Shown piece after piece: positions 25,963-55,882 of a DNA stretch of 64,000 nt; positions within the stretch are counted from its first letter, which is position 1; the number at the start of each line of letters is the position of its first letter. Below the pieces are notes generated by a model. It made no database searches, had not been told where the DNA came from, and saw only the letters and a list, made by a program, of their open reading frames with translations. The stretch is from the human T2T-CHM13v2.0 reference genome, Homo sapiens. A program made the position numbers and the translations under genes. Location: assembly GCF_009914755.1 (NCBI RefSeq), contig NC_060934.1, one strand, 5' to 3'.

Positions 25963-26262
<300 letters not shown>

Positions 26263-50837: not shown

Positions 50838-51149
<312 letters not shown>

Positions 51150-53096
51150 TGAATTCAGTCACTTAGCAAGGACCGAGGAAGGAGGGGATTCTGTTAGCCA
51201 ACACTTACAGAAAGAAGAGGCAGGTGTGGGAAGTTACAGGGAGTCATTCCTACGACAAGTTTCTAGAGGAAGAGATGGAATTGCAGCAGAGAAACCCTGT
51301 TTTCACCCTTTAGTTTCTAGCGTGGCTGATAATCTTGGCAGGAGTCGTAGACTGAGGTTGCGTCCTTTCTCCTGCACCACCGGCAGGGGGCAGCATCACG
51401 GCTCTGTGCTCTCTGTTTCACACTCTTGCTCTGGCATTCTAGTAGTGAAAAGAAAGGAGAGGAGCCTCATTTCCCCTCCCTCCCTGGTTTTCATACCACT
51501 AAGCCAACAAGATCTTTCCTTCTGGCCCCACCAAAGAGAAAAAACATAGGCAATGCTAATGACGCAACACAAAAAGTCACACGAATGATGTTAACTACAG
51601 ATTACTAGCGAAGGATTCTTCTCACATGAGAATTAGGTTTTCAGTGTGTTTCATTTGCATTAAACATTTGTTAGAGATTGCAGAATGTTTACTCAGGTAC
51701 CTTTGCTGATAGTAGACTGTTTCATTTTGGTGATGTCTGAAAGGCAACAATATAATAATAAGAAAATGCCAAGGTTCCTATTTCTATAAACATTATATAG
51801 TAGAATATATTCTTTCTATGTAGAATAATTGTTTTGCTAAATATGCAGATATGCCCAGACCAGAAACCATTTACCATTAAGTTGTCTCATGCATTAAGAC
51901 AACTGAGCCCCCTCCTCCAAATATCTGCTCCTCAGCAGAAATTTGAGTTGTCTCCAGTCATAGTTCAGTTTTGTGAGCCTCCATCACTGGTTATACTGCA
52001 AATATAATACCAAACTGTCTGCCCCCAAATATAATACCAAACTACATCATTTAGTATTTGTCCTTAGTAATAGTTGATTGCTCCATACCACCAATTAAAA
52101 GCCAGTTTGCTACACCTGAAACCCCATGAGCTAATATGAGAGACATATCTCATCAGATAGTAAGAGGGGAAAAAATTAAAAGGAGTCAAGACAATTTCTC
52201 TGCAAAGTCATGGGAATGTGAATTTTTTATATTAACTTATTCTTCCCCATGGTTTTCTTCCCCATTACAGTTGCAGTAATGCCCCATAGAACTAATTGAT
52301 TCAGATATGAAATAAAAATCACACCTAAGAAATCAACTAATCTAGATGTCATATGCCCCTATAAGTAGTTAGTCCACTAGAAAACAAATTTGCTCTTTCA
52401 TAAATTACTCCTGTGCTTTTTCTGTACTTCTGAGAATAAGAAAGGAAAAGCCTTTTTAGAAATTATTATTATACTGTAGATTTCACATAAAGAAATAACA
52501 AAAAATTATTATAGATGGTTTTGATTTGCAAGTAACAAAATGAACAGGTGGGAGAAGGATTTTCTGATTTATTTTCATTTGGGAAATTTAGTCCTATACC
52601 ACTGAATTTCTAAGATAGTTGCATGTATTTTTAACAATCCACATATGCAGAGGTGGAGTATCATTGGAAAAGGGGACCACACCAGGCTCTGTTCCAGTAG
52701 ACTGTGATACCTGGGGCAATGTCTTCACCACCTTAGGCCTTAGATGCCTCAGATATGTAATCAAAAGTTCTGCGAAGTGTTTGGTGATGTTCTTCCTCTA
52801 CTTCCAGCACTAAGATCTGTAATGTATGACCACTTAAGCCCACTACCACTACATGAGTATTTCCCCCTTCATTGAAAGATCGCTCTGACTGGATGATTCT
52901 CAAACAGGCCTTGTAGTTATGCTGTGACTTGTTGAAGCTTGTCCAGTTAAGGCTTCCGTATGTGACTATTAGATGCCTTACTAACCACATGCCTTTGATT
53001 ATTGTTGTGACCATCTCCACTTTCTCCAGCAGGGATAGAGAACAGAAATCTACCTGCTGTGGGAAGCACCGTTACCAGCCTCTTAGGGGGCCTAAA

Positions 53097-53250
53097 AGGT
53101 TTCCTAGCTTCTCGTAATAATGGGTCTTTTTGAGAATCAGATGAAAGCTATCACCTCTGAAAAATAAAACGTGCTCTCAAAATTCTGCACAACTGCAAGA
53201 GTTTCACAAGTTTCCTGAGACCCTCATAGGCATCCTAGATTAGGAACCCA
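53097..53250. mobile_element. Charlie4-like short hAT fossil
   Basis: ttttgagaatcagatgaaagctat ... gattaggaaccc; by eye. Confidence 0.5.
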
Positions 53251-53897
53251 TCTCTAAAGTCAGGGTGCCCGGTTTATCTCTGTGATCTCTCATCCTTGGT
53301 TTTCATGCCCATTAAATAAAGGAATTAATCTAACACCATTTGGGCTATAAAAATGAGATAATGCCTAGCCACAGAATTATTGCAAGAAAACGCTAAGGAA
53401 GTTGCAAATGAGAGTTATTTATCTGAGAAATTGTAACTCTGCCTTTTGGGTAATAAATTCTTAATATTTTTCTCCCAACCTTGTTGTTTACCTTGTGTCT
53501 AGTTTTGAACATACACTGCAGACAAATTTGAATTTACAACTTAACGCAGACATATTCTATGACAATGACAGCACAATTCCAAGAAATTAATCTGTTTCTG
53601 TACATTTGAAATGAAGTCATATTGGGAGTATTACAGCAGTCAGTAACTGAAAATATGTAACATGAATGTGTCAGCCCTTGGCATGATTCACATTAATAAT
53701 GTTTACATTTCGTTTACTGCTAGTCCTTGCATTGTTCCACAGTCAAAATATTAAATCTATAGAGCATTTCCTGTTTCATTTATTTATAATCTAAGCTGCT
53801 GTTATTTGTGCTTTGCTTCATGCCTTTGTTTAATTTATCTGGTGTTTGTCTTAATTTTCTCCTTCCTTTACCCCTTTCTGATTCTGTTTTTCTGTAG

Positions 53898-53939
53898 CAG
53901 ATGTCCTTACTGCCTCCCCTGCTCCTAACGGTCAGGAAG
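53898..53939 (+). CDS. PLCE1: Putative alternative cassette microexon of PLCE1 (42 nt from TAG, or 39 nt from CAG starting 53901) encoding (A)DVLTASPAPNGQE
   Basis: Long pyrimidine tract, tandem TAGCAG acceptor and donor GAAG|GTAAAT; phase 1-1 and stop-free between the exons ending 51018 and starting 54897; predicted from sequence only. Confidence 0.65.
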
Positions 53940-54896
53940 GTAAATGCCATTTGAACGGGGCATTTTAACTGCATGGATGTCAGCATTCTGTTTCCAATTT
54001 CTTGGGCCCGGTTAGCATGACGTTGTGATACTTCTGTGAATACAAATGTAATGAAATGATTTATCTCATTTACTTCTTGTCAGCCTGCATGGCCCTGATT
54101 TGGTATAAGGTCCTTTTGGTCTAATCGTTTGTGCTCTGATGATGCGATACTAAATCTTGAGTGAGAAATTAGCTTTCTTGTTTTTCATTTTAAAAGGTCA
54201 TCATCACGATACACTTCTAATACCTTTAGAGTCATTCCAAATAGAAAAGCAAAAAAAGAGCAAAATATAAGATTATATCTTATGATATAATATTCAGATA
54301 TATTTTATTTTCTGTTATGATTATCACTTAGTAAATTAATAACAATCATGAAAACTTTACTTTTTAATTATAATTGTGAAGACTTTGCATTGCACCCAAT
54401 AATAAGTCTTTCCCCCTAGGTTTTGGCATTTCTCAAGGTAAAAGAAGTAAATAGCTTCATTTCAAAGTGAGAGTGAGTCAATCATGTATGTACCTTCTAG
54501 AAGTGCTTCAGCCACTAAATCCTTCCCAAACGTGTGTGCTGTCAGCTTCTTGACACGGGGTATCTTCCATAATATTTGCACAGTTCCAATCATCTGTATG
54601 AAAATTGGCATCTTCATTTAGATTATGTCTATATGCCAGATTATTTTGAATCATTTAAATTATGTATATAAGTGACAAAAACTACTGGTAAATAAATCAA
54701 TTAAATTGAAAATAACTGCATCAACCCAATTTTTACAGTTATGCTTCAAGCCATCATTTTGTTAACATACTATATAGTTAGAGCCTCATTCTTATAGATA
54801 AGTACAAGTATCTGGATGTCCTCACAGTGATGCACATGTAGCTCTTAAGTGAAGCATTGGGTTCGTTTTCACTGAAGTCTGCTAACTTATTTTCAG

Positions 54897-55018
54897 ACAA
54901 CATTCTGGAAGACAGACCTGAAAATAAATCATGTAATGACAAGCTTCAGTTTGAATATAATGAAGAAATCCCAAAGAGGATAAAGAAAGCAGATAACTCT
55001 GCTTGCAACAAAGGAAAG
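54897..55018 (+). CDS. PLCE1: PLCE1 coding exon (recalled exon 21), X-Y linker
   Basis: attttcAG|acaac and ggaaag|GTgggt; encodes [41 protein letters not shown]; 122 nt, phase 1 to 0. Confidence 0.95.
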
Positions 55019-55882
55019 GTGGGTGAACGGTTTCTGTTAAATGACACTTTGACCATGTGGTACTCTTGTCAGTTTCAGATGAGATTCCACTTGCTCCCTG
55101 TCCCTCCCTTTCACCTTTCCCCTCACTTTCCCTTAGATACCTGCCAAAGTTCACTTGGTGATATTAAAAGACACCCACCTTCCATTTGTGGAAAGTTAGT
55201 CACTGATTCATCCAGCCAATACCTACTAATGGTGTATGTGTGGCAGGTACTGAAGTGGCACAGAGGTGGTTTAGTGATGAAGGCAGACATGTCAACTGTG
55301 TTGAATGTAAGTGCATAGAACAGTGATTATACTGTGTTATCAGAGAATCAAGGACAGGCTCTCAGGGAAGATGAGGTTTCAGAAGGAAGATTTGGCTAAA
55401 CAGACAAAAACAGAACATTCGGGCCAAGAGGGCAGCCTGGTATGTCCAGGGAATTGCAAGAAGTTTTAAAGGCATTTGGGATGACCAAGAAGATAAACGG
55501 GCCAGATAGCAGAGGAATGACACTGAGAATAGGAAGATAAATGAGATACCCAGACCCTATCCTCAAGTGCCTCACAGTTTATAGACTCTGAGCAAATCTT
55601 TAGACGCAGTTGCAGTGACATTGTTGGACAATGGAATTGTAAGATATGTCAAAAATTTGAGCCACGGAAGATACATAGTCAATCCTCTATTTATTTAACA
55701 AAGATTTATTGACCATTCCACATGTAAGACAGTGGACCATGCACTGAGGGAAGATGGAGGATGAATTAGACTCACCTCCTGCCCTCAGAAAGCTTTTACT
55801 CTAGGAAAGCTGTTGGGACATGTATATGGATAATTACCATGCAAGGGGAAATACAGTAATAACACCAGAGGAGGACAGATAA

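What the first reader, a model, noticed from the sequence alone, without database searches (positions are those of the whole stretch)
53795..54095. Candidate regulated microexon in the autoinhibitory X-Y linker of PLC-epsilon
Seen: a 100-nt AG-free zone (53796-53895), a CTTAAT branch-like site (53850-53855), a roughly 40-nt pyrimidine tract, a tandem TAGCAG acceptor and a good donor GAAG|GTAAAT. These define 53898/53901-53939 (42/39 nt). Both lengths are multiples of 3, fit the phase-1 intron between 51018 and 54897, and are stop-free: ...YESLSD-(A)DVLTASPAPNGQE-DNILED.... Four YGCY motifs lie upstream (53797-53824). Downstream are TGCATG (53970, 54086) and GCATG (54015). Known: downstream (U)GCAUG sites typically mark RBFOX-activated neural/muscle exons, YGCY is the MBNL motif, and the acidic X-Y linker autoinhibits PLC enzymes. 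Inference: a tissue-specific 13/14-aa insert, including a Ser-Pro kinase-type site, next to the acidic lid could tune basal or Rho/Rap-stimulated activity. The peptide is not in the canonical protein as I recall it; it may exist in predicted isoforms.
Basis: partly seen in the sequence, partly recalled or inferred. Interest (0 to 1): 0.85.

Follow-up and report, generated by a model that had tools for sequence, protein, structure and literature searches.

The report
Known conserved alternative PLCE1 linker exon
This is a real, already catalogued, mostly skipped 39/42-base alternative exon of the human PLCE1 gene that adds 13 or 14 amino acids to the enzyme's self-inhibiting linker and is conserved from fish to mammals, but what it does has not been studied.

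Summary
The exon is real. RefSeq (hub table) already carries 53898-53939 and 53901-53939. VastDB lists it as HsaEX0048105 (42 nt, mean inclusion 6.8 %, range 0-55 % over 53 samples).

In a search that was blind to the insert, the encoded peptide ADVL[T/N]AS[P/T]A..[Q/L]E was in 22 of 71 long PLCE1 gene models. These came from mammals, a bird, squamates, amphibians and teleosts. A second search added turtles and non-teleost ray-finned fishes, and four mammalian models with the 13-residue form.

The insert sits between the Pfam X and Y boxes, directly after the acidic stretch of the autoinhibitory X-Y linker.

The three downstream GCATG sites are unlikely by chance (0.06 % of windows; 11 of 2000 shuffles). 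The YGCY cluster is explained by local composition. RBFOX or MBNL control, tissue specificity and an effect on autoinhibition remain untested. Two PLCε reviews (2025, 2026) name only the N-terminal 1a/1b variants.

Verdict: observation confirmed, exon already known, functional idea plausible but unproven.

The parts
50889..51018 (+). Upstream constitutive PLCE1 exon. It encodes AHQLAS...[19 protein letters not shown] (the acidic stretch) and ends in codon phase 1.
   Evidence: Hub table; translation.
53796..53895 (+). 100-nt AG-free zone, ending in a tract with 35 of 40 pyrimidines (53856-53895).
   Evidence: longest AG-free zone of the 19 exons scored, and the highest pyrimidine fraction at -40..-3 (0.87).
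53797..53824 (+). Four YGCY (TGCT, TGCT, TGCT, TGCC). They are also the only TGC triplets in the 100 nt upstream of the exon.
   Evidence: The count is not above shuffles of the local sequence (1098 of 2000).
53850..53855 (+). It is one of six yUnAy matches in the zone. Another, CTGAT at 53878-53882, also fits CTRAY.
   Evidence: The branch point itself was not determined.
53895..53900 (+). Tandem (NAGNAG-type) acceptor TAGCAG.
   Evidence: The hub table lists exons starting at both 53898 and 53901. Both the 14-residue and the 13-residue peptide forms occur in mammalian models.
53898..53939 (+). Alternative cassette exon, 42 nt (39 nt from 53901), encoding (A)DVLTASPAPNGQE.
53940..53945 (+). 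Donor GTAAAT. With the last three exon bases it matches 8 of 9 positions of MAG|GTRAGT.
53970..53975 (+). TGCATG at +31 of the downstream intron.
   Evidence: The quail read-through model has HFNCM at the same offset.
54015..54019 (+). GCATG at +76.
54086..54091 (+). TGCATG at +147.
   Evidence: Only 11 TGCATG lie on this strand of the 64-kb window.
54897..55018 (+). Downstream constitutive exon, encoding (D)[12 protein letters not shown]...
   Evidence: Hub table.

Best explanation
53898/53901-53939 is a genuine alternative cassette exon of PLCE1 that dates back at least to the common ancestor of ray-finned fishes and tetrapods. It is skipped by default.

Shown: the exon exists, it is alternative, its peptide is conserved, and the insert sits in the X-Y linker.

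Inferred (splicing):
- The exon is too short for easy exon definition, yet it has a strong donor and a long pyrimidine tract with a distant branch point.
- Inclusion therefore probably depends on trans-acting factors. The best candidate is RBFOX, bound at the three downstream (U)GCAUG sites.
- The TAGCAG acceptor gives a 14-residue or a 13-residue form.

Inferred (protein):
- Inclusion puts (A)DVLTASPAPNGQE directly after the acidic stretch of the autoinhibitory X-Y linker, in the part not seen in the crystal structure.
- This lengthens the tether between the acidic patch and the distal linker elements near the active site.
- In tetrapods it also adds a Ser-Pro pair that could be phosphorylated.

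My odds: the exon is real and conserved about 0.97, RBFOX is its activator about 0.45, and the insert measurably changes autoinhibition or its regulation about 0.3.
For: Existence:
- The hub RefSeq table lists both exon forms.
- Supplemental Table S4 of PMC5630039 lists PLCE1 HsaEX0048105, chr10:96042548-96042589 (42 nt), with flanks 96039668 and 96043547. The spacings of 2880 and 958 nt equal those in the window.
- That entry gives N_samples 53, PercAS 23, AvPSI 6.82, MIN 0 and MAX 55.36.

Conservation:
- The insert is in 22 of 71 long models from a search blind to it.
- It is in 109 of the 165 long models held after the second, insert-biased search.
- Of 106 models with clean junctions, 102 have the 14-residue form and 4 the 13-residue form.
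- The mean fraction of the commonest residue is 0.80 for the insert, 0.69, 0.77 and 0.68 for neighbouring linker segments, and 0.94 for the acidic stretch.
- In alignment A1 of 62 sequences, D299 and E311 are invariant. A298, V300, L301, A303, S304 and A306 are at 90 % or more.

Place in the protein:
- In P0016, Pfam PI-PLC-X ends at 1027, the insert is at 1085-1098, and PI-PLC-Y starts at 1208.
- Passages of PMC7427993 say the linker is autoinhibitory and that its deletion raises basal activity about 20-fold in cells.
- They also say that only residues 1529-1541 and 1621-1631 of the linker are ordered. The insertion site is at about 1580 in mouse-type numbering.

Splicing signals.

Conservation of the first TGCATG (hint only): the quail model P0083 reads through the donor and gives HFNCM at the same offset as human CATTTTAACTGCATG.
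Against: - Mean inclusion is low (6.8 %). The event falls in the 'low-frequency AS' class, which the same paper says is less often conserved and mostly frame-disruptive.
- The tissue with 55 % inclusion could not be read.
- No RBFOX binding or knock-down data were found. PLCE1 with 'rbfox' gave 6 papers; none looked relevant from the listing, which is all I read.
- PLCE1 is absent from the 5 of 6 supplementary files of the RBFOX/PTBP1 micro-exon paper that could be searched.
- Conservation of the intronic motifs could not be tested on DNA, because no vertebrate genomes were on hand.
- The quail hint is a 5-residue match. Its score of 34 is equalled or beaten elsewhere in the window (best 44).
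- Ser-Pro is replaced by Ser-Thr in 39 of 106 models.
- All orthologue evidence comes from predicted gene models, not proteins.
Confidence: 0.6

Rival explanations
1. The main control is repression through the upstream pyrimidine tract (PTBP1/2 type). The long AG-free zone and distant branch point let a repressor cover the tract. The exon is included where that repressor is low, and RBFOX plays a minor part or none.
For: - The AG-free zone is 100 nt and the pyrimidine fraction is 0.87, both the extremes among the 19 exons scored.
- The zone holds TTCT four times, and TCTT and CTTTCT once each.
- PMC4317164 reports PTBP1 binding enriched just upstream of alternative micro-exons and repression by it (passages).
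- The link between long AG-exclusion zones and PTB-regulated exons is recalled, not checked here.
Against: - There is no CUCUCU, and only one TCTT.
- PLCE1 with 'ptbp' gave 39 papers, of which 15 were listed and one opened; nothing relevant was found.
- This idea does not explain the GCATG enrichment downstream.
Confidence: 0.3
2. The exon is conserved, but the insert is functionally near-neutral. It is a tolerated spacer in a disordered linker, spliced in at low level, with no regulatory consequence for the enzyme.
For: - Mean PSI is 6.82 and the event is classed as low-frequency AS.
- The site lies in a part of the linker not ordered in the crystal structure.
- Two reviews, read as passages only, describe just the 1a/1b variants.
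Against: - Peptide conservation of 0.80 is as high as or higher than the constitutive linker segments beside it.
- Eight of the 14 positions are at 90 % or more across 62 vertebrate sequences.
- Frame and length are kept in all 106 clean models.
- Maximum PSI is 55 % in at least one sample.
Confidence: 0.2
3. It is a member of the SRRM4/SRRM3 (eMIC)-dependent neuronal microexon programme.
For: It is a short, in-frame exon in a disordered region of a signalling protein, with a strong pyrimidine tract.
Against: - The length is 39/42 nt, above the 3-27 nt class (definition recalled).
- vast-tools types the event 'S', whereas a 3-nt exon in the same table is typed 'MIC'.
- There is no UGC in the 70 nt before the acceptor. 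The nearest TGC is at 53821.
Confidence: 0.05
4. MBNL proteins bound at the upstream or exonic YGCY repress the exon.
For: Four YGCY lie in 53797-53824, and two more lie inside the exon at 53911 and 53920. Four in 28 nt occurs in 0.034 % of windows.
Against: - 1098 of 2000 shuffles of the local 100 nt give four or more YGCY.
- PLCE1 with 'mbnl' gave 23 papers; none looked relevant from the listing, and the one opened did not bear on this exon.
Confidence: 0.12

Closest known systems
Micro-exons of 51 nt or less regulated by RBFOX and PTBP1 (Li et al. 2015, PMC4317164; passages read)
   Same: The length is 39/42 nt. The exon is alternative and in frame. It has pyrimidine-rich sequence more than 20 nt upstream and GCAUG downstream.
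   Different: PLCE1 was not found in the 5 supplementary files of that paper that could be searched. No binding or knock-down evidence was seen for this exon.
NAGNAG tandem acceptors (general knowledge, recalled)
   Same: TAGCAG gives two products that differ by one codon (Ala). Both are annotated in human (hub table) and both appear in mammalian models.
   Different: The proximal 13-residue form is in only 4 of 106 models. The VastDB entry records only the 42-nt form.
PLCε1a/1b splice variants (Sorli et al. 2005, as cited in PMC13022664 and PMC12627389; passages)
   Same: Alternative isoforms of the same gene.
   Different: Those variants differ at the N-terminus (308 residues). This exon changes the catalytic-core linker and is not mentioned in the passages read.
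X-Y linker autoinhibition of PLCβ, δ and ε (PMC7427993 and PMC13022664; passages)
   Same: The insert lies in the element whose deletion raises PLCε basal activity 10- to 20-fold, next to the conserved acidic stretch invoked in interfacial activation.
   Different: No published construct seen here contains the insert. Its effect is unknown.
SRRM4-dependent neuronal microexons of 3-27 nt (recalled)
   Same: A short in-frame insert in a disordered region of a signalling protein.
   Different: It is too long, there is no UGC near the acceptor, and vast-tools does not type it as MIC.

Membership tests
Alternative cassette exon of PLCE1 | AG acceptor and GT donor, with the frame kept against both neighbouring exons | tested here: met
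Alternative cassette exon of PLCE1 | Transcript evidence for both inclusion and skipping | tested here: met
   The hub RefSeq table. VastDB HsaEX0048105 has PSI 0-55.36 in 53 samples. No reads were examined directly.
Alternative cassette exon of PLCE1 | Conservation of the exon in other species | tested here: met
   22 of 71 long models and 109 of 165, from mammals to teleosts. All are gene models.
NAGNAG tandem acceptor | Two AGs three bases apart, both used | tested here: met
   TAGCAG at 53895-53900. Both starts are in the hub table. The 14-residue form is in 102 models and the 13-residue form in 4.
RBFOX-activated exon | (U)GCAUG within a few hundred nt downstream | tested here: met
   Sites at +31, +76 and +147. 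This is reached by 0.058 % of windows and 11 of 2000 shuffles.
RBFOX-activated exon | Motif conserved in other vertebrates | tested here: inconclusive
   There is only the quail read-through peptide HFNCM at the matching offset. No vertebrate DNA was available.
RBFOX-activated exon | RBFOX binding (CLIP) and a response to RBFOX loss or gain | not testable with these tools
   Literature searches found nothing for this exon.
RBFOX-activated exon | Higher inclusion in brain, heart or muscle | not testable with these tools
   Table S4 gives only the mean, minimum and maximum. Per-tissue values were not read.
MBNL-regulated exon | YGCY cluster beyond what composition gives | tested here: not met
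   1098 of 2000 local shuffles reach four or more.
SRRM4/eMIC neuronal microexon | Length 3-27 nt (recalled definition) | tested here: not met
   The length is 39/42 nt, and the event is typed 'S'.
SRRM4/eMIC neuronal microexon | UGC motif close upstream of the acceptor (recalled) | tested here: not met
   The nearest TGC is at 53821, about 75 nt upstream.
PTBP-repressed exon with a distant branch point | Long AG-free, pyrimidine-rich upstream zone | tested here: met
   100 nt and 0.87 pyrimidines.
PTBP-repressed exon with a distant branch point | UCUU/CUCUCU motifs and PTBP binding | tested here: inconclusive
   TCTT once, TTCT four times, no CTCTCT. CLIP could not be tested.
Insert in the PLC X-Y linker | Position between the PI-PLC-X and PI-PLC-Y boxes | tested here: met
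   In P0016, X ends at 1027, the insert is at 1085-1098, and Y starts at 1208.

The most novel reading that the evidence does not exclude
A deeply conserved, RBFOX-dependent switch exon sets the length and phosphorylation potential of the PLCε autoinhibitory linker in a few cell types. PLCε would then exist in two forms with different basal or GTPase-stimulated activity. Structural and cell studies so far would have examined only the short form.
Probability: 0.2. Interest if true: 0.6.

Novelty: already known. Interest (0 to 1): 0.35.

Why it matters
PLCε links Ras, Rap and Rho signalling to calcium and protein kinase C in heart and kidney. Its X-Y linker is the element that holds basal activity down.

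An alternative exon in that linker has been kept in length, frame and most residues since at least the common ancestor of ray-finned fishes and tetrapods. That makes it a reasonable and cheap target for a with/without activity comparison. The recent PLCε reviews I read in passages do not mention it.

As a genome feature it is not new. It is annotated and is in VastDB.

Tried and rejected
- RNA structure hiding the splice sites: folding 53846-53960 gave z = -1.40, and 17 of 200 shuffles fold as well. No inverted repeat of 8 nt or more was found in 53700-54200. Rejected.
- Structured RNA gene in the intron: Rfam gave 0 matches in 51000-55100 at gathering score.
- AlphaFold2 of a 700-residue core segment with the insert, using alignment A1 of 62 vertebrate PLCE1: mean pLDDT 44.8 and pTM 0.32. 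The insert region scored about 26-29 with no secondary structure. The whole model is too poor to count for or against disorder.
- Literature on this exon, main text only:
  - PLCE1 with microexon: 2 papers, both on circRNA.
  - With alternative splicing and rbfox: 6.
  - With cassette exon: 2.
  - With mbnl: 23.
  - With exon inclusion: 5.
  - With ptbp: 39, of which 15 were listed.
  - HsaEX0048105: 0.
  - With vast-tools: 0.
  - Only five of the papers found were opened, and none bears on this exon. The rest were judged from the listing alone.
- Supplements: PMC4317164 had no PLCE1 in the 5 files searched, and 1 file was unreadable.
- Four papers asked for by identifier were not held. Their supplements may list this exon.
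- In PMC5630039, PLCE1 occurs once, on the human sheet, and not on the mouse or chicken sheets.
- Earlier findings of this scan were not open.
- Cartilaginous fishes, lamprey, coelacanth and lungfish did not appear among the 120 rows listed by each protein search. The age of the exon beyond bony vertebrates is therefore open.

Full report
**Observation**

The sequence at 53700-54200 and at the two neighbouring exons was read and checked by script.
- An AG-free stretch runs from 53796 to 53895.
- CTTAAT lies at 53850-53855.
- 35 of 40 bases in 53856-53895 are pyrimidines.
- The acceptor is TAGCAG and the donor is GAAG|GTAAAT.
- The exon is 42 or 39 nt and keeps the phase-1 frame between 51018 and 54897. 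It reads (A)DVLTASPAPNGQE.
- YGCY occurs at 53797, 53809, 53814 and 53821.
- TGCATG occurs at 53970 and 54086, and GCATG at 54015.

**Is it more than chance?**

Openness and frame alone are not. The intron 51019-54896 holds 68 stop-free, frame-keeping AG..GT stretches of 27-63 nt. This one ranks first in that list for both donor match (8 of 9) and upstream pyrimidine fraction (0.87).

Among the 19 exons scored in the window, it has the longest AG-free zone (100 nt, against 11-66 for the others). Only 6 of 4549 AG-to-AG gaps in the window reach 100 nt.

Three GCATG within 152 nt is reached by 0.058 % of windows of that size and by 11 of 2000 dinucleotide shuffles. Only 11 TGCATG lie on this strand of the whole 64 kb, and two of them are here.

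The YGCY cluster does not stand up. Four in 28 nt is rare window-wide (0.034 %), but 1098 of 2000 shuffles of the local 100 nt give four or more.

**What it is**

The hub table already lists exons 53898-53939 and 53901-53939 in other RefSeq transcripts of PLCE1.

Supplemental Table S4 of Tapial et al. 2017 (PMC5630039) also has it. I read the header in part 1, the matching row, and main-text passages. The row reads:
- PLCE1, event HsaEX0048105, chr10:96042548-96042589, 42 nt, flanks 96039668 and 96043547.
- Type S, N_samples 53, PercAS 23, AvPSI 6.82, MIN 0, MAX 55.36, class LFAS.

The spacings of 2880 and 958 nt equal 53898-51018 and 54897-53939, so this is the same exon.

The exon is therefore known, mostly skipped, and included up to 55 % in at least one sample. 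I could not read which sample. The other tables held for that paper are benchmarking and raw RT-PCR data.

**Conservation**

The first search used the upstream exon (43 residues) against the large protein collection. It was blind to the insert and returned 120 rows, 71 of them 900 residues or longer. Of these 71:
- 46 have the skipped junction.
- 21 carry a 14-residue insert.
- One quail model carries the insert but then reads on into the intron.
- Three are otherwise odd.

The second search used a linker segment that contains the insert, so it is biased towards insert-bearing models. It brought the total held to 165 long models: 52 skipped, 109 with the insert, and 4 others.

By the names the sources give, insert-bearing models come from:
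- many mammals, pigeons and quail;
- turtles, lizards and snakes;
- frogs, salamanders and a caecilian;
- sturgeon, paddlefish, gar, bowfin and bichir;
- many teleosts.

Of 106 models with clean junctions on both sides, 102 have the 14-residue form. Four (dingo, arctic fox, beaver, vole) have the 13-residue form, so the tandem acceptor is seen outside human too.

The peptide is as well kept as, or better kept than, the constitutive linker around it. The mean fraction of the commonest residue is 0.80 for the insert, 0.69, 0.77 and 0.68 for neighbouring segments, and 0.94 for the acidic stretch (91 unique segments).

In an alignment of 62 sequences, D and the final E are invariant. A, V, L, A, S and A are at 90 % or more.

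Ser-Pro is present in 64 of 106 models, Ser-Thr in 39 (mostly teleosts), and neither in 3.

All of this rests on gene models. It does not give inclusion frequencies.

**Place in the protein**

In model P0016, Pfam PI-PLC-X ends at 1027, the insert is at 1085-1098, and PI-PLC-Y begins at 1208.

The insertion point follows residue 1599 in a 2303-residue primate model. It follows residue 1580 in a mouse-type model.

Passages of Rugema et al. 2020 (PMC7427993) state the following, in rat numbering:
- The X-Y linker autoinhibits PLCε, and its deletion raises basal activity about 20-fold in cells.
- A 10-15-residue acidic stretch is the conserved element of the linker.
- Only residues 1529-1541 (a helix) and 1621-1631 (a hairpin, seen in one chain) of the linker are ordered.
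- A loop at 1631-1643 passes over the active site.

The insert therefore falls in the unseen part, directly after the acidic stretch and about 40 residues before the hairpin. The transfer of numbering from mouse to rat is my inference.

Two reviews read in passages name only the N-terminal variants 1a and 1b (PMC13022664, 2026; PMC12627389, 2025).

**How it most likely works**

Shown:
- The exon is alternative and conserved.
- It has a tandem acceptor.
- It has a strong donor, a long pyrimidine tract and a long AG-free zone.
- It has an unusual density of GCATG downstream.
- The insert is in the linker.

Inferred: a 42-nt exon is hard to define on its own (Li et al. 2015, PMC4317164, passages). 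Inclusion therefore probably needs an activator. Downstream GCAUG is the classic RBFOX arrangement; that general rule is recalled and is consistent with that paper's title and abstract.

One indirect hint of motif conservation exists. The quail model P0083 reads through the donor. Its peptide has HFNCM at residues 8-12, the offset at which human has CATTTTAACTGCATG. The match is short, and its score of 34 is equalled or beaten elsewhere in the window (best 44).

A rival or additional control is repression through the pyrimidine tract (PTBP type). It fits the AG-free zone but has only modest motif support.

At the protein level I infer that 13-14 extra residues, with net charge -2, lengthen the tether after the acidic patch. 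In tetrapods they also offer a proline-directed phosphorylation site. Nothing seen here tests that.

**Rejected or uninformative**

- An RNA structure occluding the splice sites: z = -1.40, and no inverted repeats.
- Rfam matches: 0.
- An AlphaFold2 model of the core with the insert: mean pLDDT 44.8, too poor to use.
- Membership of the SRRM4 microexon class fails on length, on the lack of UGC near the acceptor, and on the vast-tools type.
- Nine literature searches found no main-text treatment of this exon (one search served for the linker papers).
- Supplements of four papers I asked for were not held and may list it.

**Verdict**

The exon is real, deeply conserved and already catalogued, so it is not novel as a feature.

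The RBFOX idea has statistical support but no direct evidence. The MBNL idea is weak. The functional idea is untested.

Interest is moderate to low. It is a cheap, well-founded experiment for PLCε biochemists rather than a surprise.

Noticed in passing
window 54420-54578 (+): The other alternative exon in this intron has a good acceptor (ccccctag|GTT). It has no GT after 54578 and no AATAAA inside. Spliced after 51018 or 53939 it reads GFGISQGKRSK-stop, which would truncate PLCε inside the X-Y linker or mark the transcript for decay. It overlaps the minus-strand PLCE1-AS1 exon 54494-54593.
   Followed up: partly
protein P0083 (quail model), matched to window 53961-53975: This gene model reads through the donor of the alternative exon into the intron. 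That gives an accidental look at bird intron sequence: HFNCM at the same offset as human CATTTTAACTGCATG.
   Followed up: partly
protein P0016 (Nasalis model), Y box, outside the window: The model carries an extra EQTKAEIGEFVED within NYQTDD...LPLHL of the Y box, which the other models lack. It is either a prediction artefact or another alternative exon.
   Followed up: no
proteins P0185 (tree frog) and P0210 (carp): In these models the insert is followed by further non-homologous residues before NILED/NILDD. This is probably read-on or extra exons in the models.
   Followed up: no
proteins P0001-P0008 and others, matching window 50889-51017: Short open reading frames from metagenome sources are 88-98 % identical to the human exon. 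They presumably come from host DNA in those samples.
   Followed up: no
window 25997-26105 versus 25997-26153: The hub table lists a shorter form of this exon in other transcripts, an alternative donor 48 nt upstream that keeps the frame. I did not examine it.
   Followed up: no
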